46,359 nt of DNA from a virus, in IMG/VR virus record IMGVR_UViG_3300050499_000085, one strand, 5' to 3'. Of this stretch, positions 1 through 46,359 are shown one piece after another. The number at the start of each line of letters is the position of its first letter. Position 1 is the stretch's first letter. The notes under the pieces were generated by a model. It was not told the origin of the DNA. It saw nothing but the letters and a program-made list of their open reading frames with translations, and did no database searches. The translations under genes and the position numbers were made by a program.

Positions 1-127
1 ATCTGGCCGACTACCTCACGGGCGTGGTCAAGAATATCGGCGAGCATCCCTTCGTCACCGCCGGGAATCTGATCGGCGCGCAGGTGCGGGTGGTCGATCC
101 GCACTACGAGGCCAAGCGCGGGTCTAC
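1..127. repeat. Terminal direct repeat, left copy (assembly overlap of a circular or permuted genome)
   Basis: Read base by base: 1-127 equals 46233-46359 (offset 46,232). Confidence 0.95.
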
Positions 128-2014: not shown

Positions 2015-2449
2015 CTAGTGCGTGCGGCGCTTGACGACGAACCCTGCCACCATCAGGCCAGCGGCCAGCGTCATCCACGTCTGCGGCTCAGGTACGGGCG
2101 TCAGGAAGGCGCGTGTGCTACCGACGGCGCTGACTCGCTGAGTGAATTGAAAGAACCACATCTCCTCGCTCACGCTGATCCGCGCACGCCCAGCTGGCGG
2201 CGTGACAAATTCCAGTACGAACAGGTCGTCCGGCCACGATCCCTCTCGGATATTGACCTGCTGCGTCGTCACCCCGCTGCCGCTCATGACAAGGTATTGC
2301 GATCTGGGCGGTGGCGACGGGCGGGAGTAGGGCAGGATGTAGACCTCGAAAGACGTGTTGGTGAGGTTGTTCACGGTCAAAACAGCGGCATGGGCAGCGT
2401 GGCCCAGCAACAGCGCCGGGATCAGCAAAAGCCCTAACTTGGTTTTCAT
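2015..2449 (-). CDS. Secreted PEP-CTERM domain protein, 144 aa
   Basis: N-terminal signal peptide MKTKLGLLLIPALLLGHAAHA. C-terminus VPEPQTWMTLAAGLMVAGFVVKRRTH = PEP motif + TM helix + basic cluster. AAAGGGA RBS. Confidence 0.8.
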   Translation of the reverse strand: MKTKLGLLLIPALLLGHAAHAAVLTVNNLTNTSFEVYILPYSRPSPPPRSQYLVMSGSGVTTQQVNIREGSWPDDLFVLEFVTPPAGRARISVSEEMWFFQFTQRVSAVGSTRAFLTPVPEPQTWMTLAAGLMVAGFVVKRRTH

Positions 2450-7710: not shown

Positions 7711-8270
7711 ACGGACACCCCCGTTATCTCATCGGTATAGTCAAGCTCTGGTTCGCACCAGCAATCCGGTTTAGCTTCATGTTCTTTTGTCAGTTCCGCG
7801 CGAGCGGCTTTAATGTTGATGCCGTGTCCCGGCGAAGTTTGCCCTCCTGGGGTGCAGAAGCGGGCGTGACATTGAGCACAGCATCCATTGGTGCAGCGGC
7901 TCCAATCTCGCGAAATGTCGCGGGCACAAACTACACACCGACATGCGTTCATCTGGATTCTCCGGTTAGTCTGTGGTGCGCAAGCAAGCTCGTCGCGGTT
8001 GCCGCCGTCTGCGGTGTAGCTCGCGTCTGCGTCGGGCTTGGTCATGTTCTGTCCGCTATAAGTCTGATGGTGTGTTAGCAATTCTTTCCTGATTCTCTTC
8101 GCCGTCCTGAGCACCGCATTTGCATGGTCGCGCATGCGAGCGCCTATCCAATTTCGATATTCGGCGCATGCTGCTTTTTCGATGTAGACCTCTGCTGTTA
8201 CTTCAAGTACGTGCGCGAAGTTGTAGCGGTATACCAGCTTGCGCAGTTCGTCTCGTGCTTCGGGGCTCAT
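7686..8270 (-). CDS. Hypothetical protein, 194 aa, with a Cys-rich C-terminal half (CRCVVC...CTNGCCAQCHARFC). Possible internal start at 7952.
   Basis: Track ORF. The internal ATG 7952 is preceded by the same GGAGAATCCA RBS cassette used by the two upstream genes. Confidence 0.55.
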   Translation of the reverse strand: MSPEARDELRKLVYRYNFAHVLEVTAEVYIEKAACAEYRNWIGARMRDHANAVLRTAKRIRKELLTHHQTYSGQNMTKPDADASYTADGGNRDELACAPQTNRRIQMNACRCVVCARDISRDWSRCTNGCCAQCHARFCTPGGQTSPGHGINIKAARAELTKEHEAKPDCWCEPELDYTDEITGVSVWTHRQIQ

Positions 8271-8569
8271 TTGGATTCTCCTGTCTGTTCTCCGGTTGGT
8301 CCAGCATCAAATACCGCGCGCATTTCGTCTCGCGCCAGCACAAGCGCAGCAATCCTTGGACCGGCATCAAACACCGCTTGCATTTCGTCTCGCGCACGCA
8401 CAAGCGCCGCGATCCTCGCCTCCGCGTCGCGTATGCGCTCGGCTAGCACATGCCCCGTAACGTAGATGTGCCCGCTGTAACTGGTTGAGCCTGCGGATAC
8501 CTCACCCCGGTCGTTTATCTGTGCCTTGCCTTGCAAGTCGTAAACTGCGTTCAGGTCTGCGTAGTTCAT
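8267..8569 (-). CDS. Hypothetical protein, 100 aa, containing a duplicated 20-aa segment
   Basis: ATG 8569 in ATGA overlap, GGAGAATCCAA RBS. Ends in TGESK like the upstream gene. Confidence 0.6.
   Translation of the reverse strand: MNYADLNAVYDLQGKAQINDRGEVSAGSTSYSGHIYVTGHVLAERIRDAEARIAALVRARDEMQAVFDAGPRIAALVLARDEMRAVFDAGPTGEQTGESK
8298..8417. repeat. 60-bp x 2 in-frame tandem duplication (about 50/60 identical)
   Basis: 8298-8357 aligned by eye against 8358-8417. Encodes RIAALV(R/L)ARDEM(Q/R)AVFDAGP twice. Confidence 0.85.
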
Positions 8570-10086: not shown

Positions 10087-10403
10087 GGTCTGTTCTCCTC
10101 TTGTTCCGGCCAAACATAGGCGGCTTCGTTTTCGTTCCATTCCATCCCGAACGGGATAAGCCAGCAGTCTCCATCTTGATGTACGTGGTATGACACATGG
10201 GTAACCGGGTCTGTGACCACTGCGCTATTGAGCACGGTATCCCAAGCATCCCAATACCATTCCTCATCGGGTCCATCCAGCAAGCACGTCCAAGTCTCGT
10301 CGTCTATTCCGGCGACGCATTCGCGCTTTGTCTGCTCGGCGAAACTTTGCGGAAGGTAAATTCCGCGTGAGTCATTCAGATACAAAACGGGTTCTGGTTT
10401 CAT
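10083..10403 (-). CDS. Hypothetical acidic Trp-rich protein, 106 aa
   Basis: ATG 10403 with AGGAGA RBS. ATGA overlap. Confidence 0.65.
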   Translation of the reverse strand: MKPEPVLYLNDSRGIYLPQSFAEQTKRECVAGIDDETWTCLLDGPDEEWYWDAWDTVLNSAVVTDPVTHVSYHVHQDGDCWLIPFGMEWNENEAAYVWPEQEENRP

Positions 10404-10669
10404 GGTTTGCTCTCCTGTTCTCTGCGGCGTTGCAGGTAGGCTCGCGCGGCCTCTTCGCCGCACGTTGCCTGTATCCAATCGCAAACGAAAGCAATCCCGG
10501 TGACGCCGTGCTCGCGCACGTACCGGACACGAGTCATTGGCAAGTTAAATTCCTGCGCGATGTCTCGGATAGTCTTGTGGTTTATCCGCATCAATCTGCG
10601 GATGCTTGCGCCGCTGAGTGAGTCTCCTAAGTGCTCGGCTAGTGCTCGGCTTCGGTCCACTGCTTTCAT
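10400..10669 (-). CDS. Helix-turn-helix DNA-binding protein, 89 aa
   Basis: ATG 10669 with GGAGAAG RBS. HTH-like IRRLMRINHKTIRDIAQEFNLPMTRVRYV. Lies 16 nt downstream of the 14-bp repeat array. Confidence 0.65.
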   Translation of the reverse strand: MKAVDRSRALAEHLGDSLSGASIRRLMRINHKTIRDIAQEFNLPMTRVRYVREHGVTGIAFVCDWIQATCGEEAARAYLQRRREQESKP

Positions 10670-10684
10670 TTGCTTCTCCTCGTA

Positions 10685-10782
10685 TGCGCTCGGTTGCGTG
10701 CGCTCGGTTGTCTGCGCTCGGTGCTCTGCGCTCGGTGCTCTGCGCTCGGTGCTCTGCGCTCGGTGCTCTGCGCTCGGTTGCA
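10685..10782. repeat. Iteron-like array: 7 head-to-tail copies of a 14-bp unit TGCGCTCGGTGCTC (4 perfect, 3 variant)
   Basis: Units at 10685, 10699, 10713, 10727, 10741, 10755, 10769. Two related AGTGCTCGGCT copies at 10629-10651. A 14-bp period is not a multiple of 3. Confidence 0.9.
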
Positions 10783-10898
10783 TGTCCTGGTGCTGCTGCT
10801 TCTTGCTGTTCGTGCGCGTTTCCGCTGAGGGCGGGCCAGATAGCAGCGCGGTAGTTCGCGCTGGTAGCTGGAGCCGTCCGGCTCTGATGCAGCCGACG

Positions 10899-10925
10899 GA
10901 GCCGCCGCGACTGGTGCGGCGGCTC
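10899..10925 (-). promoter_or_regulatory. 10-bp GC-rich hairpin after the 61-aa gene (no U-tract)
   Basis: GAGCCGCCGC (10899-10908) / GCGGCGGCTC (10916-10925), 7-nt loop. Confidence 0.35.
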
Positions 10926-10935
10926 GATCTGCGGC

Positions 10936-14069: not shown

Positions 14070-14151
14070 TGTTGCCAAACAAGCGAGGGCGGCGCCATAA
14101 TGCGGGCGCTGCTCTCGTTTCCGCGAAGCAGTCCGCCGGGGAGGGTGGAGG

Positions 14152-14532
14152 GTGCAGGTGAGATTGAACGATCAGGCGCAGATCGACCGCGCCATTGCTT
14201 TCTGTGAGTCGCTGCGCATGCGTGGCGAGTTGTCCGCTTTTGACTGCGCTCGTGCTGTGGCGCAGTGCCGTAGGCGCGTCTGGCTGCTCGCTGCTCGTCG
14301 TTCGCCTTCGCGAGGGTCGAGCCGCTGGCATGGCATCGAGCGCCGAGCGGAGGCTATACCATCCCCTGCAAGCCAGCAGGATGCGGCTTGCGTTCCAGAC
14401 AACGTGTCTGCGCGAATGCAAACCGGAGCCTGTGAGGTACTTCCAAGTCACCCCCCGGTCCAAGGAAATGCAGGCTCCTCTTCGATTTCAAATGAGGCCG
14501 CGCAGCGGTCCATAGAAAAGAGCGCCGCATGA
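14152..14532 (+). CDS. Doubtful ORF, 126 aa
   Basis: GTG start after GGAGGGTGGAGG. The first ~45 codons look protein-like. The second half has weak GC3 and is low complexity. Confidence 0.3.
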   Translation: MQVRLNDQAQIDRAIAFCESLRMRGELSAFDCARAVAQCRRRVWLLAARRSPSRGSSRWHGIERRAEAIPSPASQQDAACVPDNVSARMQTGACEVLPSHPPVQGNAGSSSISNEAAQRSIEKSAA

Positions 14533-14744
14533 GCAATCATCCTGGGAAGTTGAGGCCATTGGCGAAGCCAAGCGAGCGGATGAAGAAAAACCGGCTTGCG
14601 AAGGCAAGATCGCAACAAGGCATAGGCCAAATGAGCATGTGGCCTATCGTTCACAAGCGCGAGCTTAGGCACAGAGCGGAGCAAGAGGCCCAGGAGAAGG
14701 CGCGGCAGAAGGCCATGCGGATTGATAGTGTGAGGCGACTATGA
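14529..14744 (+). CDS. Small basic protein, 71 aa
   Basis: ATGA overlaps at both ends. Lys/Arg-rich helical sequence. Confidence 0.4.
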   Translation: MSNHPGKLRPLAKPSERMKKNRLAKARSQQGIGQMSMWPIVHKRELRHRAEQEAQEKARQKAMRIDSVRRL

Positions 14745-14935
14745 GCAAGCGGTCTAAGCGGAAGAAGCTGGCCCGGCGTGCGGCTTATGCTCGTATTCTT
14801 GAAGGGCAGGCGAGTGTGCTGGAGGAGCGTGCTTCGCAGCTTGGTGAAGTTGAGCAGGCCAAGCGTCAGGCTGCGGAGTTGTACAGGCGAATTGCTGCAG
14901 CTAGGCGCAAGGATATTGCTGAGAGGGAATCATGA
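14741..14935 (+). CDS. Small basic coiled-coil protein, 64 aa
   Basis: ATGA overlaps at both ends. Confidence 0.45.
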   Translation: MSKRSKRKKLARRAAYARILEGQASVLEERASQLGEVEQAKRQAAELYRRIAAARRKDIAERES

Positions 14936-15102
14936 CGCGGGCTGAGTGGATGGTGAACCGCATGAACCAGCGCACAGAAGAGCGTTGGGATGAGCAGGCG
15001 AGGCTTAAGCGCAGCGCGCAGGCGAGGGCAGGATGGCGCAAGGCGAAGAGGCGACTGGCGGCAAGTAAGGCTCCTGTTGGCAAGGCGCAGAGAAAAGCCT
15101 AA
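14932..15102 (+). CDS. Small basic protein, 56 aa (MTRAEWMVNRMNQRTEERWDEQARLKRS...)
   Basis: Not in the track. ATG 14932 in ATGA overlap. Stop TAA at 15100-15102. Confidence 0.4.
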   Translation: MTRAEWMVNRMNQRTEERWDEQARLKRSAQARAGWRKAKRRLAASKAPVGKAQRKA

Positions 15103-15599
15103 GCTGGCGATCCAACGGACGGAGGGACGGGCAACGGACGAAGCTCATAGGTTCACCCAAAGCGAGTATGCGTTGGTACTCGACAGCATGACCAACGAAA
15201 CCCAACCGTGGGAGTAGCACGGTCCCCTGTGATGGCCCGCAGGCGGGAAGGTGAAGCGGAGCCGACCCGATGAAGCACTCTTGTACGCAGCGTATCGCGT
15301 GCGTCAGCCCCGGAAGGGGGAGCCCCGACAACGGACAGGCAAAGGCCGTTGGGAGTGCAAAAGGATTCGCGAAAAGTTCGCCAGCAAGGAAGGCGGGCTA
15401 GGTTCTGCCCGCCTCAAACATCGCCAGCGGCGATCTGTCTCTAAAGTCTGCGGCTGTCGTTCTCAATACCTAGTTCCTGGTTTCAATGTCTGCGGTTGGG
15501 TCGTTCGCCTTATTTAAGCGATTGCCTTTGCAGTCTGTCAGCGCATCGGTGAGCTACGACATAGACGCTTGACCACTTGCCTCGCGCGCGGAAGAGTGT

Positions 15600-15629
15600 T
15601 TGACTGATTGGTGCGGGGCACGATAGCTA
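15600..15629 (+). promoter_or_regulatory. Candidate sigma70-type promoter TTGACT-N18-TAGCTA
   Basis: -35 at 15600-15605, -10-like at 15624-15629. Inside the ORF-poor region. Confidence 0.3.
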
Positions 15630-15635
15630 TCCTAG

Positions 15636-15853
15636 CATCTACCCGAGCATCTGCTTCGTTGGCTGTCCAGTCCTAACCCACTGATCCTAAACTCGGGGGC
15701 CCATTTCGACACCCCCCGACTCCCCCTTTAGCGAAAGCGGACCCCCGCTCCCTCCCGTTGCACTGCGCGCATTCAGCTGCACAGCAACACGGCCTTTACA
15801 CTTGCCAAACCACGGAATTGTTGTTGTTTTGCGACTGTGGTTTCTTTTTTTTT
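15636..15853 (+). ncRNA. Candidate ~220-nt C-rich small RNA bounded by the promoter and terminator candidates
   Basis: No credible ORF. Internal hairpins, e.g. TCGGGGG (15693-15699) / CCCCCGA (13-nt loop) and GTTGC...GCAAC at about 15757-15787. Ends in a T9 tract. Confidence 0.25.
15807..15853 (+). terminator. Rho-independent terminator candidate
   Basis: Stem AAACCACGG (15807-15815) / CTGTGGTTT (15835-15843), then C + T9 (15845-15853). Confidence 0.5.
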
Positions 15854-15928
15854 GGGTTGAGTGGTAGGGTGTTGCGCGTTCTGCAACAGGGTATTAGGAT
15901 GCAGTGCAGAACAAGTGTGAAGAAAGGG

Positions 15929-16035
15929 GCTCCGGTGGTTGCAAGGGTGGTAGCACGCTGCCGAGGTGGATGGCCTGCTGAGGTGGTGGGATTAGGGAGG
16001 CGGCGGAGGTGCCGGTTCGAATCCGGCCTGGGGCT
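15929..16035 (+). ncRNA. tRNA-like element: degenerate phage tRNA, an att-type tRNA 3' fragment, or a tRNA-like module of a larger RNA
   Basis: Canonical T-arm GCCGG-TTCGAAT-CCGGC (16011-16027). A 7-bp acceptor pairing is possible, GCTCCGG (15929-15935) with CTGGGGC (16028-16034). U8 and a GGGTGGTAGCAC D-arm-like segment are present. No anticodon stem folds, and 107 nt is too long for a tRNA. Confidence 0.35.
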
Positions 16036-16248
16036 TCGGTGTTGGGGTTGTTTGTCGGGGTGGAATTATCTCCAAGGGGGTTGTTCTTGACGTTGACTTC
16101 GTTAGCTGAAGACTACAGTCACTGGCGGGTCGTTAAACAGCAGTCCTGTGGTAATGAGACAGGGGAGGTTGGCTGAAGGCGTTGCGGGAAGGCTTTTTTG
16201 CAAAATGAATGTGAAGTAAGCTGATGCGCATGTCGGCTGGGGGGTGGG

Positions 16249-16530
16249 ATGGCGGCTGAGGGCGTATCGGTTGGGCGCTTGTTGTGGCACTGGCTGGAGC
16301 ACAAGGCTGGTTGGTATCGTGAGCGCACGGAGTATCGGTGGTCCAACGGGGATTTGCTGCTGCGGGAGGTGTGCGAGCAGTGTGGGTCGAAGAAGCAGGC
16401 GGTGCTCGTGTACTTTGGTCGAAGGATTAGGGAGAGCACATGGATGCCGATAGAGGGCGCGTCTCCCGAGGTGGCCTATTACGTGTGGGAGGGTTTGCAG
16501 CAGAAGAGGCGGCTGTTGTCGGATAATTGA
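16249..16530 (+). CDS. Hypothetical protein, 93 aa
   Basis: GGGGGGTGGG before the ATG. Stop overlaps the next start. Confidence 0.5.
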   Translation: MAAEGVSVGRLLWHWLEHKAGWYRERTEYRWSNGDLLLREVCEQCGSKKQAVLVYFGRRIRESTWMPIEGASPEVAYYVWEGLQQKRRLLSDN

Positions 16531-22302: not shown

Positions 22303-24308
22303 ATTTAGACCGCACCGAGCTTTTGCGGCGCATGTCGGAGGACCGCGCGCTCGCGCTGGACATGCTGTTTTCGGCCAAGCACGAGGACGCGACCCCGGCG
22401 ATCCACCTGAAGATCGTGCAGGCGTGGCGCTCGGCGCACGAGCGCGTGCTGATCGAGGGCTTTCGCGGCAGCGCCAAGACCACCAAGGCGCAGGAGTTCA
22501 TCGCGGTCGAAGCCTGTTACGCCAACTTCCCGTTCGGCCTGCTGTTTGGCGAGACGTGGGACAAGGCGTGTGAAAAGCTGGAGAACATCAAGTTCGCGCT
22601 CAAGACCAACCGCATGCTGATCGGCATGTTCGGCACCCTGCTGGGCAAGGGCGCGACCGACAAAGTGGACTCCATCGTGCTCACCAACGGGGTTCGCATC
22701 GACGCCTACGGCAAGGGCCAGTCGCCGCGCGGTCGCTTGCACCACGACGCGCGCCCGACCTTTGCCATGCTGGACGACATCGAGAACAAGCTGAACGGGG
22801 ATGTGGCCTCCAAGGAGGCGGTCGATACCACCGTGTCGTGGTTGTACGCCGAGGTGATCCCGGCGCTCGATCCCAAGCGCGGGCGCATCCGCGTGAACTG
22901 CACGCCGGAGGGTACCGACTGCCTGCCGGTACGCCTTCGCACAGACGACAGCTGGATGCGGTTGTACTTCCCGATCTGCTTGGGCGAGCCGGAGGACGAG
23001 GATGCGCAGCCGCTGTGGGAGTCGCGCTTCGGCCTGCCGTGGATTCGCAATCAAAAGGCGCTGTTCGAACGGCAGGGATTGTCGGACGACTTCGACCGTG
23101 AATATATGCTGCGGGCCCGCTCCAACGAACTCGCCGACTTCGATGAGCGCGACCTGCAGGAATGCCCGGCCCTGCCAACCGACCATCTGCCGGTGTGGGC
23201 GATGTACGATCCGGCGCGCACCAAGGATCGGAAATCCGACAACTACGGGCGGGTGGTTGCCGCCTTTCACGGCAACACGATCTACGTCGTGCTCTCGGGC
23301 GGCATGAACTGGAAGCCGTCCGACATGATCAACGACCTGTTCGATGTGAACGAGCAGTACCGGCCTATCGGCTTGGGGGTGGAGAGCGATTCGCTGGAGG
23401 ACTGGATGCGCGAGCCGATCCGCGCCGAGATGATCAAGCGCAACACCGTGCTGCCGCTGGTCGATCTGCGCGCGCCCAACGACAAGAGCAAGCACGACTT
23501 CATCCGGGGGGCGCTGCAGCCGTTTTGCCGGGCGCGGGCGATTGTGCTGGTGGGCGGGCGCGGCGCGCACCAGCAGCTGGTGGAGGAGATGCGCCGCTTT
23601 CCGTCGAAGAACGACAACGTGGTCAACGCGCTGGCTTATATTGTGAAGATGCGGCCCGGTGAGCCGGTGTACGGCGAGTTTTCCGATGCCAACGTGTCCG
23701 TCAACGCGCAGCCCCAGCGTTCCGGCGCGATCATGCTCGCCTTCAACCAGTCCAGCACCGAGGTCACTTGTGTGGCGGTGCAGCAGGTGGGGTTGGCGTT
23801 CTACCTGCTGCGCGAGTGGGTGGAGCCGGGGGCGGTGGCCGATGCGGTTCGCTCGATCTGGATGTCGGCGCAAGGCGAGCTTGGGCGTCATTCCTTGGTG
23901 GCCTACTCGCCTGCCGACGTGTTCGATGAGTGGACGCGGCTGGAATTGAACCGCCATCTGCGCGGACTGAACATACAGCCAGCACGCGGGGGCTACTATC
24001 AGGAAAGCCTCGCCTGCCTGAACGACAGCGTGCGCACCACGATCCGGGGCCAGCGGGCGTTGCTGGTTTCGCCCGAGTGCCGCTACTTGATCGCCGGGCT
24101 GATGGGCGGCTACGCCATCCCGATGAAAGCCGGGCGGCTGGCCGACGAGCCGGTCGAAGGGCTGCACCGCACGCTAGTCGCGGGCCTGGAATGCATGCTG
24201 TATCAGGTCATGCGCGGGCAGGGGGCTGCGGCCCAAGCCAACTACGCCAGCGTGGGCGGGCGCCAGTTCATGACGACCCGGCCCGACATTTACGCCCGTC
24301 CGCGCTAG
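22299..24308 (+). CDS. terL: Terminase large subunit, 669 aa
   Basis: Walker A-like GFRGSAKTT, Walker B-like FAMLDDIE. Size and position directly upstream of the portal. GTG 22299 chosen over the Ala/Gly-rich upstream extension. Confidence 0.85.
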   Translation: MNLDRTELLRRMSEDRALALDMLFSAKHEDATPAIHLKIVQAWRSAHERVLIEGFRGSAKTTKAQEFIAVEACYANFPFGLLFGETWDKACEKLENIKFALKTNRMLIGMFGTLLGKGATDKVDSIVLTNGVRIDAYGKGQSPRGRLHHDARPTFAMLDDIENKLNGDVASKEAVDTTVSWLYAEVIPALDPKRGRIRVNCTPEGTDCLPVRLRTDDSWMRLYFPICLGEPEDEDAQPLWESRFGLPWIRNQKALFERQGLSDDFDREYMLRARSNELADFDERDLQECPALPTDHLPVWAMYDPARTKDRKSDNYGRVVAAFHGNTIYVVLSGGMNWKPSDMINDLFDVNEQYRPIGLGVESDSLEDWMREPIRAEMIKRNTVLPLVDLRAPNDKSKHDFIRGALQPFCRARAIVLVGGRGAHQQLVEEMRRFPSKNDNVVNALAYIVKMRPGEPVYGEFSDANVSVNAQPQRSGAIMLAFNQSSTEVTCVAVQQVGLAFYLLREWVEPGAVADAVRSIWMSAQGELGRHSLVAYSPADVFDEWTRLELNRHLRGLNIQPARGGYYQESLACLNDSVRTTIRGQRALLVSPECRYLIAGLMGGYAIPMKAGRLADEPVEGLHRTLVAGLECMLYQVMRGQGAAAQANYASVGGRQFMTTRPDIYARPR

Positions 24309-45000: not shown

Positions 45001-46359
45001 CAATTACCTGCAGATCGCAGAGAAGTCGTTTCCGCAGGTCAAGCAGATGCTGCAGGCGCGCGACCCGATGGCTTTCGAGGAGCAGCTGGGCTTCTGGCGC
45101 GGGCTGGAGCAGACCATGCAGGGCTCGGTCAACGCCACCATGCTCAACCCGGCGTTCCACATGTTCACGGTGGCAAGCCGCATGGCGCCGTTCGAATTTA
45201 AATCCAACCCGTGGTGGACGCCCGACTCGCACCAGCGCGCGGTGCAGATGCTGGGCAACCGCGAACAGATGCAGCGCATGCGTGCCGATGGCTACCGTCA
45301 GTTCCCGGTGCGGCAGACCGACCTGCCCACCGGCGCGCAGATGGGCGCGGTCGAAAAGCTGATGCGAAAGCACCCCATGAGCGAGAAGACCTACGCGGCT
45401 TGGATCGGCTCGCACAACTGGATGGCGAAGTCGGTGAACTTCTGGCAGGCGATGTTCTACGACATGACCAAGGCCGACCTGATGAAGAAAGGTGCGCCGG
45501 AGCAGGCCGCGCACCTGATGGCGATCCGCAAGTCGAACACGATGGCGGGCAATCTCGCCAAGGCCGAGATGCGTCCCGGCTGGTGGAAGGGCATGGGGTC
45601 CACCTTCTTCTCGCGCGGCTATACCTCCACCGTGCTGCGGCAGCTGACGCGCTCCATTGCGCACGACAAGACCTTGCAGGCGGCGCTGCGCCAGCGCGGT
45701 TTCACCCCGGAGCAGGCGATGAAGCTGGTGCACCAGAACCGCGACGACTTCGCCGCCGCGCTGATGCGCGACTACATCATGTTCCAGACCTCGATGCAGG
45801 CGTGGAACTACACGGCCACCGCGCTGTACGACGAGGAGGACAAGCACGGCAACACGGGCGGGCACTTCACTTGGCAGAATAAGGGCTCGGAGGGGATCGG
45901 CGATGTGATTGCGCCCACGCGCGTGTTCTCGGGCCGCGACGAGGAAGGCAATGGCATCTACCTGCGCGCGCCGTTCCGTACCACGCTGGACATGCTGCTG
46001 TTCCTCAAGCAGCCCGCGCAGATTCTGAGCGGCGAGCGCCCGGAGTGGATCACGCATAAGGTGCATCCGATGGTGCGTGGTCTGCAGCAGCAGTTCTCGG
46101 GCGAGCACTTCGGCGGTCAGCCGATGGGCGACAGGCCCGCCACGCTCGCCAATATTGTTGAGAGCACCGTGCCGCCGCTGGGCGATACCGCGCACGCCGC
46201 CGCCGAAGCCTACCGCCAGCAAAACGCCGACTATCTGGCCGACTACCTCACGGGCGTGGTCAAGAATATCGGCGAGCATCCCTTCGTCACCGCCGGGAAT
46301 CTGATCGGCGCGCAGGTGCGGGTGGTCGATCCGCACTACGAGGCCAAGCGCGGGTCTAC
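42044..46359 (+). CDS. Giant internal virion/ejection-type protein (~1,522 aa in total). Runs off the window end and finishes at 380.
   Basis: GTG 42044, 3 nt after the upstream stop. No stop in this frame to the window end, which is why it is absent from the track. The 938-aa antisense ORF is its shadow. Confidence 0.8.
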   Translation, partial: MAGPWQDYESAAPAEPAAGPRGPWQDYGPIKEGGQTAAPAGPWQDYAAPSPPPGPAGKIVVELPPLRKLGPAEHEAEQRKFDTQVGQEEQAARSSNLQAIDRELRVNKNPAAREILLKERARIALGEAKKTHGPAVPAPYRNPKPVNLPGPSAGLDFYERYVTPFAENALALGSGMVAAPVAGLSGMAALPVPGVSAADVVNRVQSGLTYAPRTRGGEQQSQRFGHLMEYPSRPAMAAGEALADAGYPNAAVVARTALDPWAWLAIYGGLPRGGPPLRPSAAPQVPWQGQGLSRPPAPRPPSPPGPMPPAPTPPGGVPRTEPSLGQYPEVTGPEFSPLGRDIAPLERRPEPALGGLPEPSKPEFPNADITQNVGGFEFDRIAPSKKPRLKGPPATEREVPGSVQVGDQPPIAVGEPALPTPPVQQVGALAPEQTPIAPAPDLGGLPPPPQGELPPVPPSPGHSARLDFTGQTVAKGPELPRPPYEPPIPEGELDFSGRSTARYDLTSPDDVAAGVHVVEDTSRRTGGTEEGRGYQHKQTIAFRTKIEEYLFKSATEGQKQDMWFNRLQDRVRNLEPEESGYADLADMTIPELQRAAKRYRDQVRTQVEAAARDYEGEQINVRARPYDRSVYEEPGAPPAPPAPEPGGLPLPPGGAAAAPEEAPAPAEAPALPLPPRPPAKLKAETRGGLDLTTDSLTTAISKLGGLSRDQMLDIVGDTKGSYKTKSGLSVFRKGGADIDTMLQRLYENHYISEENWLKDNGKSWLEEALHEEIGGTKKHYSLGGDEEARFARMRDDYYGGGPGSLSANPWFNPKRMLKAVREAVQSLTGMTDAGQIGAGAGGRGHGIAWQYDNLVESARMTGMEDMAAVKRNKANAGSAKQKRKDIGTLSAIEDENIHLREIASQRLSQRWSQEELDLGDPPRTPEAMAVENEKIRRLLAREQLQRKLVSTGEAVNLNRAAHGDTVKQEGASFRELPMWATRLPGGNYLQIAEKSFPQVKQMLQARDPMAFEEQLGFWRGLEQTMQGSVNATMLNPAFHMFTVASRMAPFEFKSNPWWTPDSHQRAVQMLGNREQMQRMRADGYRQFPVRQTDLPTGAQMGAVEKLMRKHPMSEKTYAAWIGSHNWMAKSVNFWQAMFYDMTKADLMKKGAPEQAAHLMAIRKSNTMAGNLAKAEMRPGWWKGMGSTFFSRGYTSTVLRQLTRSIAHDKTLQAALRQRGFTPEQAMKLVHQNRDDFAAALMRDYIMFQTSMQAWNYTATALYDEEDKHGNTGGHFTWQNKGSEGIGDVIAPTRVFSGRDEEGNGIYLRAPFRTTLDMLLFLKQPAQILSGERPEWITHKVHPMVRGLQQQFSGEHFGGQPMGDRPATLANIVESTVPPLGDTAHAAAEAYRQQNADYLADYLTGVVKNIGEHPFVTAGNLIGAQVRVVDPHYEAKRGS
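42050..42220. repeat. 3 x 57-bp (19-aa) tandem repeats, each starting GPWQDY
   Basis: GGACCGTGGCA(A/G)GACTAC at 42050, 42107 and 42164, exactly 57 nt apart. Confidence 0.85.
46233..46359. repeat. Terminal direct repeat, right copy
   Basis: Identical to nt 1-127. Confidence 0.95.

What the first reader, a model, noticed from the sequence alone, without database searches (positions are those of the whole stretch)
15103..16248. 1.15-kb ORF-poor, structure-rich segment in an otherwise gene-dense genome: candidate large or small ncRNA locus, origin or att region
Almost everywhere else genes abut or overlap, but this stretch has no ORF with an RBS or protein-like composition. The track ORFs 15251-15517 and 15758-16090 are Arg/Cys-rich with poly-Phe runs.

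It contains:
- CAACGGAC three times (15113, 15132, 15329).
- A ~20-nt imperfect direct repeat GTCTGCGG(C/T)TG..CGTTC at 15446-15464 and 15488-15508.
- Several GC hairpins, e.g. GGCGGGC/GCCCGCC at about 15392-15413 and TCGGGGG/CCCCCGA starting at 15693.
- A TTGACT-N18-TAGCTA promoter candidate (15600-15629) followed ~220 nt later by a hairpin plus T9 terminator (15807-15853).
- A tRNA-like module (15929-16035).

Phage-borne large ncRNAs often sit next to tRNA-like elements. Alternatively this could be the replication origin or an attachment region.
Basis: partly seen in the sequence, partly recalled or inferred. Interest (0 to 1): 0.7.

Follow-up and report, generated by a model that had tools for sequence, protein, structure and literature searches.

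The report
Conserved non-coding gate before phage late genes
The gene-free 1.15-kb stretch is real, but only a 67-base C-rich element plus the terminator-like hairpin after it is shared with related uncultivated phages; it most likely controls transcription into the block that leads to the packaging genes, and the "tRNA-like module" is a decayed tRNA-Leu gene.

Summary
The window is a circular assembly (about 46.2 kb) of an uncultivated tailed phage. The gap 15103-16248 is truly non-coding: public gene calls put nothing there, its ORFs have negative codon scores, no Pfam hits and no homologues.

It is not unusually structured, and its short repeats are not clearly more than chance. It has four parts:
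- **15103-15685:** unexplained DNA with no comparator.
- **15686-15752:** a single-copy C-rich core. It recurs in three other phage lineages whose terminases are only 45-89% identical to this one. Its 5' motif shows in three more. It always lies on the coding strand, upstream of the block leading to terminase. Rfam has no match.
- **15757-15853:** a hairpin, then a stem plus T9. This is conserved in the nearest relative.
- **15854-16248:** lineage-specific G-rich filler. It holds a degenerate tRNA-Leu-like element (15929-16035; Rfam 22.4 bits against a 29-bit cut-off; ARAGORN finds nothing). The nearest relative has two ORFs here instead.

Best reading, confidence about 0.4: a leader RNA plus terminator that gates read-through into the downstream block. 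A packaging or terminus site is the main rival. An origin, an att site and a large ncRNA are not supported.

The parts
15103..15685 (.). Left part of the gap: non-coding DNA of unknown role. It contains CAACGGAC x3, the GGCGGGC/GCCCGCC hairpin (15392-15413), the GTCTGCGGYTG pair (15446, 15488) and the weak TTGACT-N18-TAGCTA promoter candidate (15600-15629).
   Evidence: No called genes. Negative codon log-odds. No Pfam hit or homologue. The repeats are not clearly above chance. There is no comparator, because the L099 contig starts at the equivalent of about 15600.
15686..15752 (+). Conserved single-copy C-rich core: CCTAAACTC-GGGGG-loop-CCCCCGA-CTCCCCC-TTTA-GCGAAAGC-GGACCCCC.
   Evidence: Covariance model R1 scores 87 bits here and 70-77 bits once each in L099, L270/L271 and L272. 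Nothing else scores above about 11 bits in 1.2 Mb of loci. 33 alignment columns are invariant. There is no Rfam match. Indels between lineages are not multiples of three.
15693..15719 (+). Hairpin 1 of the core: UCGGGGG / CCCCCGA, with a 13-nt loop.
   Evidence: A 7-bp stem is predicted in the window, L270 and L272, whose loops differ in sequence and length. U-A becomes U.G in L270 and L272. Two A.C mismatches break it in L099; these would be G.U on the minus strand.
15731..15738 (+). GCGAAAGC mini-hairpin (GAAA loop closed by C-G), inside the invariant AGCGAAAGCGG.
   Evidence: Invariant in all four lineages.
15757..15788 (+). Hairpin GUUGC...GCAAC between the core and the terminator.
   Evidence: The MFE and centroid folds of 15630-15860 contain it. 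The outer UUGC/GCAA arms are also present in L099.
15807..15853 (+). Intrinsic-terminator-like site: 9-bp stem AAACCACGG/CUGUGGUUU with a 19-nt loop, then C and U9.
   Evidence: Fold of -11.6 kcal/mol. The sequence block and T-run are conserved in L099 (T10 at 256-265). The consensus scan missed it because its loop limit is 8 nt.
15854..16248 (+). Lineage-specific G-rich spacer (GC skew about +0.45) ahead of the first downstream gene (16249). It has a weak TTGACT-N15-TACAGT at 16093-16119.
   Evidence: Not conserved in L099, where about 1 kb with two ORFs (552-812, 844-1209) takes its place. Skew. The promoter-like hexamers are read from the sequence only.
15929..16035 (+). Degenerate tRNA-Leu-like element. 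The acceptor stem, D-arm, 5' anticodon stem and T-arm are intact. About 39-45 nt of G-rich sequence stands in place of the anticodon loop, 3' stem and variable region.
   Evidence: Rfam tRNA scores 22.4 bits against a gathering score of 29. ARAGORN finds none. The 3' end, about 24 nt, is identical to tRNA-Leu(CAA) of a Bradyrhizobium tRNA array (L237), and most of the 5' 34 nt match. The alignment scores 48 against -3 +/- 5 for shuffles. The cloverleaf is 7.8 kcal/mol worse than the MFE fold.

Best explanation
The gap is a non-coding boundary between two rightward gene blocks of a roughly 46-kb phage. Its functional heart is a leader-plus-terminator unit on the + strand.

- **Anatomy.** The conserved 67-nt C-rich core (15686-15752) is followed by a hairpin (15757-15788), then a stem plus U9 (15807-15853).
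- **Proposed mechanism.** Transcripts arrive from the upstream early genes, or start at a weak local promoter near 15600-15629. They would carry the core and normally end at the U9 site. That would give a short terminated RNA of about 170-215 nt. Under the right conditions RNA polymerase would read through into the downstream block: small accessory genes, a GerE/LuxR-type regulator, then terminase and the structural genes.
- **What it works like.** In logic this resembles the promoter-proximal leader and terminator of lambdoid late operons (PR'-qut-tR', 6S RNA), or the cis-acting put RNAs of HK022.
- **Shown.** The stretch is non-coding. The core is single-copy, conserved and keeps the same position. 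The terminator-like site is conserved in the nearest relative.
- **Inferred.** That the core is transcribed. That the + strand is the active one. That the U9 site terminates. That read-through is regulated.
- **The rest of the gap.** 15854-16248 is lineage-specific filler that holds a decayed tRNA-Leu-like gene. 15103-15685 remains unexplained.
For: - **Non-coding.** There are no gene calls. There is no periodicity. Codon log-odds are negative for all but one short ORF. There are no Pfam hits or homologues. Indels between lineages are not multiples of three.
- **Core conserved under heavy turnover.** R1 scores 70-87 bits once per genome in four lineages whose terminases are 45-89% identical to the window's. 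L270 and L272 have terminases 78% identical to each other. In the 4-5 kb upstream of their terminases they share almost nothing detectable except the core.
- **Motif traceable further.** The 5' motif YTAA(A)CTC(T)GGGGG...CCCCCGR also appears in L100, L103 and L273. There it lies 130-920 nt upstream of the terminase start, just ahead of the gene that precedes terminase, or of terminase itself in L103. In L103 and L273 GC hairpins and a U-run follow it.
- **Consistent placement.** The element always lies on the strand of the flanking genes, in a non-coding stretch at the head of the block that leads to terminase.
- **T-run downstream.** A T-rich run lies about 50-115 nt after the core's 3' end in all four lineages: T9 in the window, T10 in L099, T9 in L272, and a T-rich tract in L270.
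- **Terminator conserved.** The hairpin and T-run block is conserved between the window and L099.
- **Hairpin pattern.** Hairpin 1 keeps its stem while its loop changes in length and sequence. The U-A to U.G change is compatible only with the + strand.
- **No earlier stop.** The scan finds no + strand terminator between 15102 and 15806, so upstream transcription should reach the core.
Against: - No transcript data exist.
- No conserved or consensus promoter lies upstream of the core in any lineage.
- Covariation is weak: one pair changes on both sides, and 44 of 500 shuffles reach the observed score.
- L099 has two A.C mismatches in hairpin 1 that would be G.U on the minus strand. The strand is therefore undecided.
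- Folding z-scores are unremarkable: -1.6 for 15630-15860 and -0.5 for L099.
- In L272 and L270 the T-runs are not preceded by a stable GC hairpin.
- No antiterminator protein was identified.
- The 580 nt to the left of the core are unexplained.
Confidence: 0.4

Rival explanations
1. The core is a DNA-level packaging or terminus signal (pac or cos site, or the edge of a short direct terminal repeat) recognised by the terminase. The gap would then be the physical end region of the virion DNA.
For: - The core is single-copy and always lies upstream of the terminase-containing block. In three lineages (L100, L103, L273) its 5' motif lies just ahead of terminase or of the one gene that precedes it, a classic position for cos or pac sites.
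- Contig ends cluster at or near it. Seven ends, from about five samples, fall at window 15722-15782.
- L099 starts 82 nt upstream of the core. L272 starts about 260 nt upstream. L100, L101 and L102 start 150-360 nt upstream of the motif.
- The nearest isolated relatives of the terminase are N4-like phages at 24-28% identity. From general knowledge, N4-like phages package genomes with defined ends and terminal repeats.
- The arms GGGGG/CCCCC form an inverted repeat.
Against: - The deepest assemblies close into a circle with a 127-nt overlap elsewhere in the genome.
- The contig ends are ragged, not at one base. Other end clusters exist at 14081, 16377/16393 and 20698/20718.
- C-rich runs, homopolymers and mosaic junctions between co-occurring strains can break assemblies at the same place.
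- The spacing between the inverted arms varies from 4 to 14 nt or more between lineages.
- In the window and L099 the site is 6.6-7.5 kb from terminase.
- No reads were available to test for read-start pile-ups.
Confidence: 0.22
2. 15640-15853 is a free-standing, trans-acting small RNA gene. Its unpaired C-rich tracts (CCCCCC, CUCCCCC, ACCCCC, CUCCCUCCC) would pair with G-rich Shine-Dalgarno regions of host or phage mRNAs.
For: - It has the same anatomy as the best explanation: conserved core, terminator-like 3' end and non-coding context.
- The C-rich tracts are mostly unpaired in the predicted folds.
Against: - The promoter is weak and not conserved.
- The element's fixed position at the head of the terminase-bound block in every lineage points to a cis role.
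- No targets were tested.
- There is no Rfam match to the known C-rich sRNA families.
Confidence: 0.15
3. The core is a conserved junction sequence at a module boundary. It would be kept because homologous recombination between mosaic phages happens there, and it would have no regulatory role. The rest of the gap would be decaying filler.
For: - The flanks are completely replaced between relatives while the core persists.
- The slot just downstream holds different cargo in each lineage: a tRNA remnant here, two ORFs in L099.
- Contig breaks at the site fit co-occurring mosaic variants.
Against: Thirty-three invariant columns across terminase divergence down to 45% are more than recombination alone usually preserves. 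Linker sequences are normally found at many junctions, whereas this one is single-copy.
Confidence: 0.1
4. The gap is the replication origin, or an attachment (attP) region built on the tRNA-like element.
For: - Short direct repeats are present.
- A tRNA-like 3' half is present. Phages often integrate into tRNA genes (general knowledge).
- GC skew changes sign locally near 15800.
Against: - There is no AT-rich segment; GC does not fall below 0.52.
- The repeats are few and near chance level.
- Stronger tandem repeats lie elsewhere, at 8296-8416 and 10685-10778.
- No integrase was found among the proteins scanned.
- A scan of 185,579 genomes found the 23-mer in 37 places. The identity extends by only 1-2 nt further.
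- The tRNA-like element is absent from the nearest relative.
Confidence: 0.05

Closest known systems
Lambdoid late-operon leader (PR'-qut-tR', giving the 194-nt 6S RNA) and the HK022 put RNAs (processive antitermination elements). Recalled from general knowledge, not tested by sequence.
   Same: A conserved element sits at the head of the operon that contains the packaging and structural genes. A terminator follows about 100-170 nt downstream, so the default product would be a short terminated RNA. The predicted core has two stem-loops separated by one unpaired base, which is the layout described for put.
   Different: There is no sequence similarity to either. No Q-like or N-like antiterminator was identified. 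No consensus promoter lies next to the core. The structure has almost no covariation support. About 6 kb of accessory genes lie between the element and terminase in this phage.
tRNA-Leu(CAA) genes of bacterial tRNA arrays (for example Bradyrhizobium embrapense, L237 5068-5146)
   Same: The acceptor stem, type-II-like D-arm (GGTGG...TGGTAG), 5' anticodon stem (GCTGCC) and T-arm match. The 3' end, about 24 nt, is identical.
   Different: The anticodon loop, 3' anticodon stem and variable region are replaced by about 39-45 nt of G-rich sequence. The discriminator is T and no CCA follows. The score is below Rfam's cut-off and ARAGORN does not see it.
cos and pac sites of tailed phages
   Same: A single-copy, GC-rich, partly palindromic site upstream of the terminase block. 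Contig ends cluster near it.
   Different: Termini were not mapped. The assembly is circular. The spacing of the inverted arms varies. The site is far from terminase in this lineage.
N4 early promoters: small DNA hairpins with a G..A loop, recognised by the virion RNA polymerase (PMC4496689)
   Same: An invariant mini-hairpin of the C-GAAA-G type lies at the start of a block of small early-type genes. The terminase is distantly N4-like.
   Different: No virion or other phage RNA polymerase was found. There is only one copy, whereas N4 has three early promoters. The loop has 4 nt rather than 3.

Membership tests
tRNA (Rfam RF00005 / ARAGORN) | Score at or above the curated cut-off; cloverleaf with a 7-nt anticodon loop | tested here: not met
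   22.4 bits against a gathering score of 29, with 39 nt in place of the 7-nt loop. ARAGORN finds 0 genes in the window.
tRNA (Rfam RF00005 / ARAGORN) | Acceptor stem, D-arm and T-arm with GGTTCGAATCC | tested here: met
   All 7 acceptor pairs form (two are G.U). The D-stem has one bulge. The T-stem has 5 bp with a canonical loop. The 3' end is identical to real tRNAs.
Phage attP in a tRNA gene | Integrase gene in the element | tested here: not met
   No integrase family appears among the proteins scanned with PHROGs or Pfam. Not every small ORF was scanned.
Phage attP in a tRNA gene | Extended identity with the 3' part of a host tRNA gene | tested here: not met
   The 23-mer occurs in 37 genomes, but identity extends only 1-2 nt beyond it. 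The true host may be missing from the collection.
Replication origin (iteron type) | Cluster of iterons next to an AT-rich unwinding region | tested here: not met
   Only two- or three-copy short repeats near chance level. GC is 0.52-0.64 throughout. No tandem repeat apart from a 10-nt x2 inside the core.
Intrinsic (Rho-independent) terminator | GC-rich stem-loop followed directly by a U-run | tested here: inconclusive
   A 9-bp stem (4 G-C pairs) with a 19-nt loop, -11.6 kcal/mol, then C and U9. It fails the scan's loop limit. It is conserved in L099 with T10. Termination itself was not tested.
Known RNA families, including the large phage-associated RNAs (GOLLD, ROOL, HEARO), Y RNA/YrlA, ribozymes and sRNAs (Rfam 15) | Match to the family covariance model | tested here: not met
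   Nothing reaches the gathering score in the whole window. Nothing but the tRNA hit and two chance-level hits appears at E<=10 in 14900-16500. Nothing relevant appears in the relatives.
Processive antitermination leader (put / qut / nut type) | Promoter-proximal element on the transcript, upstream of terminators, at the head of an operon | tested here: inconclusive
   The position and the downstream terminator-like site fit. No promoter was found. No factor was identified.
Processive antitermination leader (put / qut / nut type) | Read-through of terminators that depends on the element | not testable with these tools
   This needs transcription assays or Term-seq.
Structured ncRNA (general) | Statistically supported covarying base pairs | tested here: not met
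   With four sequences, one pair changes on both sides and 44 of 500 shuffles reach the observed score. L099 breaks hairpin 1 on the + strand.
Sigma-70 promoter at 15600-15629 | Two hexamers matching the consensus at 16-18 nt spacing | tested here: not met
   TTGACT is a 5-of-6 match (read from the sequence). TAGCTA lacks the T at position 6 and the site is not reported by the scan. It is not conserved in L099.

The most novel reading that the evidence does not exclude
The 67-nt core would be a previously undescribed class of phage cis-element. It could be a factor-independent RNA that makes RNA polymerase terminator-resistant (put-like). Alternatively it could be the packaging or terminus signal of an uncultivated clade of podovirus-like soil phages. 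Either way it would mark the start of the late or morphogenesis block and serve as the fixed anchor around which accessory and anti-defence genes are exchanged.
Probability: 0.25. Interest if true: 0.6.

Novelty: new member of a known kind. Interest (0 to 1): 0.42.

Why it matters
If the core is a transcription gate, it gives a handle on how an uncultivated clade of soil phages times its late genes. This clade has no isolate with a terminase more than about 28% identical.

The core also marks a hotspot where cargo is swapped directly downstream. In the nearest relative the block after it includes a gene matching the Acb2/Tad1 Pfam family, which is named after phage anti-defence proteins. In this phage the slot just downstream holds a tRNA remnant.

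The covariance model offers a simple marker for finding more members in metagenomes. Practically, the finding shows that most of the 'interesting' 1.15 kb is filler and that only about 170 nt deserve experiments.

Tried and rejected
- **GenBank phages.** BLASTN found no match for the gap, for the left 23 kb of the window, or for the core alone.
- **IMG/VR.**
  - The beta-helix protein and the terminase found no relatives.
  - DUF932 gave 80 loci at 66% identity or less. None shares DNA with the gap.
  - Two core patterns gave no hits.
- **Metagenome pattern scan.** The pattern was too loose (18 specified bases).
- **The 93-aa gene right of the gap.** It has no homologues in the protein collection.
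- **DUF932 relatives at 70-71% identity.** They sit in unrelated contexts.
- **Large conserved ncRNA upstream of the core.** L270 and L272 share weak collinear blocks about 215 nt upstream, but the window does not align there. Rejected.
- **Protein-coding core.** Rejected because of frame-breaking indels.
- **HDV-like or other ribozyme.** No Rfam hit. By inspection the C-rich strand cannot form the required P2 helix.
- **N4-type hairpin promoter.** No phage RNA polymerase was found.
- **Sigma-54 or sigma-70 promoter at TAAACT.** No matching upstream element by inspection or by my own scan.
- **Global claim of rich structure.** Rejected on folding z-scores.
Full report
**1. Context**

The window is a circular assembly: its first 127 nt equal its last 127 nt. 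That gives a genome of about 46.2 kb.

It is a tailed phage. It has a large terminase (22332-24308), a portal and a major head protein. Relatives carry SU10-type portal and adaptor domains.

Copies that are 100% identical occur in several rhizosphere metagenome assemblies from JGI, ENA and Logan. GenBank phages share no DNA with it. The best terminase match among isolates is 24-28% identity, to N4-like and other podoviruses.

Genes run leftward from about 1-11.4 kb and rightward from 11.6 kb onwards. The finding therefore lies inside the rightward block. It sits between a cluster of small genes (DUF932, then three small basic proteins ending at 15102) and the next cluster. That next cluster holds a 93-aa gene at 16249, a beta-helix protein and a GerE/LuxR-type regulator, and reaches terminase 6 kb further on.

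**2. Is the observation right?**

The gap is real.
- No source calls a gene in 15103-16248.
- There is no third-position GC signal.
- Thirteen of the 14 ORFs inside it have negative codon log-odds, -0.13 to -0.81. The exception is a 31-codon minus-strand ORF over the core, at +0.04. Seven of 11 neighbouring small genes score +0.19 to +0.75.
- Pfam finds nothing.
- The 88-aa ORF has only low-complexity matches among 1.84 billion representative proteins, and it is not itself a predicted protein there.

Their weight, however, is smaller than suggested.
- Folding z-scores across the gap are ordinary.
- CAACGGAC is not enriched in the window.
- The consensus scan reports no promoter.
- ARAGORN reports no tRNA.
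- The gap is not the only gene-poor stretch. 7711-8565 and 10141-10935 are also poor in coding-like ORFs. Both hold tandem repeats (60 nt x2 and 14 nt x6.7), and the second differs in length between samples.

**3. Comparative evidence**

The phage is nearly an orphan, so relatives had to be reached through the terminase.
- The closest (P0005, 89% identity) lies on an 11.2-kb contig, L099. Only two pieces around the gap align with it. Window 15683-15853 matches L099 80-264, at 70% overall with two blocks at about 76%. The 93-aa gene also matches.
- The window stretch 15854-16266, which holds the tRNA-like element, has no counterpart in L099. L099 has about 1 kb there with two ORFs instead. It has no tRNA.
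- The L099 contig begins at the equivalent of about 15600. The left 580 nt of the gap therefore have no comparator.

**4. The conserved core**

Two more distant lineages contain the same core in a non-coding stretch upstream of the genes that lead to terminase. These are L272 (terminase P0007, 47% identical to the window's) and L270/L271 (P0008, 45%).

A covariance model built from the four sequences scores 87 bits in the window (15686-15752) and 70-77 bits in the others. It hits once per genome. Nothing else scores above about 11 bits in 1.2 Mb of fetched loci.

L270 and L272 have terminases 78% identical to each other. In the 4-5 kb upstream of their terminases, the core is almost the only detectable DNA similarity between them.

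Thirty-three columns are invariant, among them AACTC, GGG, CCC, CCCCC and AGCGAAAGCGG. Length differences between lineages are not multiples of three, so the core is not coding.

The 5' motif (YTAA(A)CTC(T)GGGGG...CCCCCGR) is also visible in three further terminase lineages: L100-102, L103/L104 and L273. There it lies 130-920 nt upstream of the terminase start, just ahead of the gene that precedes terminase, or of terminase itself in L103. These copies fall below the model's threshold.

Rfam has no match for the core, either here or in the relatives.

**5. Structure**

RNAalifold proposes two stem-loops separated by one base.
- The first is UCGGGGG / CCCCCGA with a variable loop.
- The second is UCC...GC-GAAA-GC-GGA.

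Hairpin 1 keeps its stem in the window, L270 and L272 while the loop changes in sequence and length. Its outer U-A becomes U.G in L270 and L272, which is compatible only with the + strand. In L099, however, two G-to-A changes give A.C mismatches on the + strand and G.U pairs on the minus strand.

The formal count finds one pair with changes on both sides, and 44 of 500 shuffles reach the observed score. A hairpin is therefore plausible, but RNA against DNA, and the strand, are not settled.

**6. What follows the core**

In the window there is a GUUGC...GCAAC hairpin (15757-15788). After it comes a 9-bp stem plus C and U9 (15807-15853, -11.6 kcal/mol). This block and a T10 run are conserved in L099.

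L272 and L270 also have T-rich runs about 50-115 nt after the core's 3' end, though without convincing stems. L103 and L273 have GC hairpins followed by U-runs directly after the motif.

No + strand terminator is predicted between the upstream genes and the core. Upstream transcription should therefore reach it.

**7. The tRNA-like module**

The Rfam tRNA model aligns all four arms, but with 39 nt in place of the anticodon loop. The score is 22.4 bits, below the cut-off of 29.

A scan of 185,579 genomes with its T-arm plus acceptor 23-mer found 37 real tRNAs. Identity extends by only 1-2 nt beyond the 23-mer.

The best overall likeness is to the tRNA-Leu(CAA) of tRNA arrays in Bradyrhizobium and related alphaproteobacteria. 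The 3' end, about 24 nt, is identical, and most of the 5' 34 nt match. The alignment scores 48 against -3 +/- 5 for shuffled sequence.

It is thus a decayed or disrupted tRNA-Leu-type gene lying in a variable cargo slot. It is not an att core. No integrase was found among the proteins scanned.

**8. Interpretation**

The best-supported reading is a leader-plus-terminator unit on the + strand. It would gate transcription from the upstream genes into the block that ends in the packaging and structural genes.

It works like lambdoid PR'-tR' or HK022 put, but it is not a member of either. There is no sequence similarity, no identified factor and no promoter.

The main rival is a DNA-level packaging or terminus site. 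A cluster of contig ends supports it: seven ends from about five samples at 15722-15782, and contigs of three other lineages that start within 400 nt upstream of the motif. Those ends are ragged, and other clusters exist. C-rich runs, homopolymers or mosaic junctions could also explain them.

A trans-acting C-rich sRNA and a mere recombination junction remain possible. An origin, an att site and a large ncRNA are not supported.

**9. Verdict**

Most of the 1.15 kb, though, is unexplained or lineage-specific DNA.

The new result is a 67-nt conserved, single-copy element, absent from Rfam, at the head of the terminase-bound block in at least four uncultivated phage lineages. Interest is moderate. 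The element is a good candidate for a new phage regulatory or packaging motif, but its function, its strand and even its molecular level (RNA or DNA) remain inferred.

Noticed in passing
window 15722-15782: Seven contig ends from about five independent samples fall within 60 nt, just after or inside the core. In two runs the left and right contigs overlap by only 24-26 nt, so no k-mer bridges the site. This could be a physical DNA end, a sequencing problem on the C-rich run, or a junction between co-occurring mosaic strains.
   Followed up: partly
window 10685-10778: A 14-nt tandem repeat (TGCGCTCGGTGCTC, 6.7 copies) is length-polymorphic: contig L081 lacks two units (28 nt). It lies in a stretch with weak coding signal (10141-10935) next to the divergent promoter region. 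It is a better iteron or origin candidate than the gap.
   Followed up: partly
window 8296-8416 (within 7711-8565): A 60-nt x2 tandem repeat lies in a second stretch of about 850 nt without coding-like ORFs, in the leftward gene block.
   Followed up: no
window 1-127 and 46233-46359: The first and last 127 nt are identical, so the window is a circular assembly of about 46.2 kb. A 1522-aa proline-rich protein (42044 to 380 across the junction) has no PHROG match.
   Followed up: partly
window 14529-15102: Three small, very basic, coiled-coil-like proteins (71, 64 and 56 aa) have overlapping ATGA start/stop junctions and near-zero codon scores. Some gene callers skip them. The 64-aa one starts with an arginine- and lysine-rich N-terminus (MSKRSKRKKLARR...) that recalls the RNA-binding motifs of N-type antiterminators. 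This is a lead only.
   Followed up: no
L237 (Bradyrhizobium embrapense), L243, L236, L266, L235: These loci hold dense tRNA gene arrays, 11-22 tRNAs within 8 kb. They include a 79-nt tRNA-Leu(CAA) with a short variable region, which is the closest relative of the window's tRNA remnant.
   Followed up: partly
L099 2170-2421: The nearest relative carries a gene hitting the Acb2_Tad1_hairpin Pfam family in the block that follows the core. The family is named after phage anti-defence proteins. The genes after the element may therefore be early accessory or anti-defence cargo.
   Followed up: no
L272 210-235, 360-368, 450-540; L099 256-265, 384-393: The relatives' non-coding regions around the core carry several long T-runs (up to T16) and strongly G/T-rich tracts such as GGTTTTGGGTTTTTGGTTTGG. 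The window's 15854-16248 is likewise G-rich (GC skew +0.45).
   Followed up: no
L270 1-30 and L271 1-31: Two contigs from different runs start at the same place with CCCCCACCG repeats. This is probably an assembly break at a tandem repeat.
   Followed up: no
window 2015-2449 (- strand): A 144-aa ORF ends in a PEP-CTERM sorting motif (Pfam 21.7 bits against a cut-off of 20.7). This is unusual for a phage gene and a possible clue to the host.
   Followed up: no
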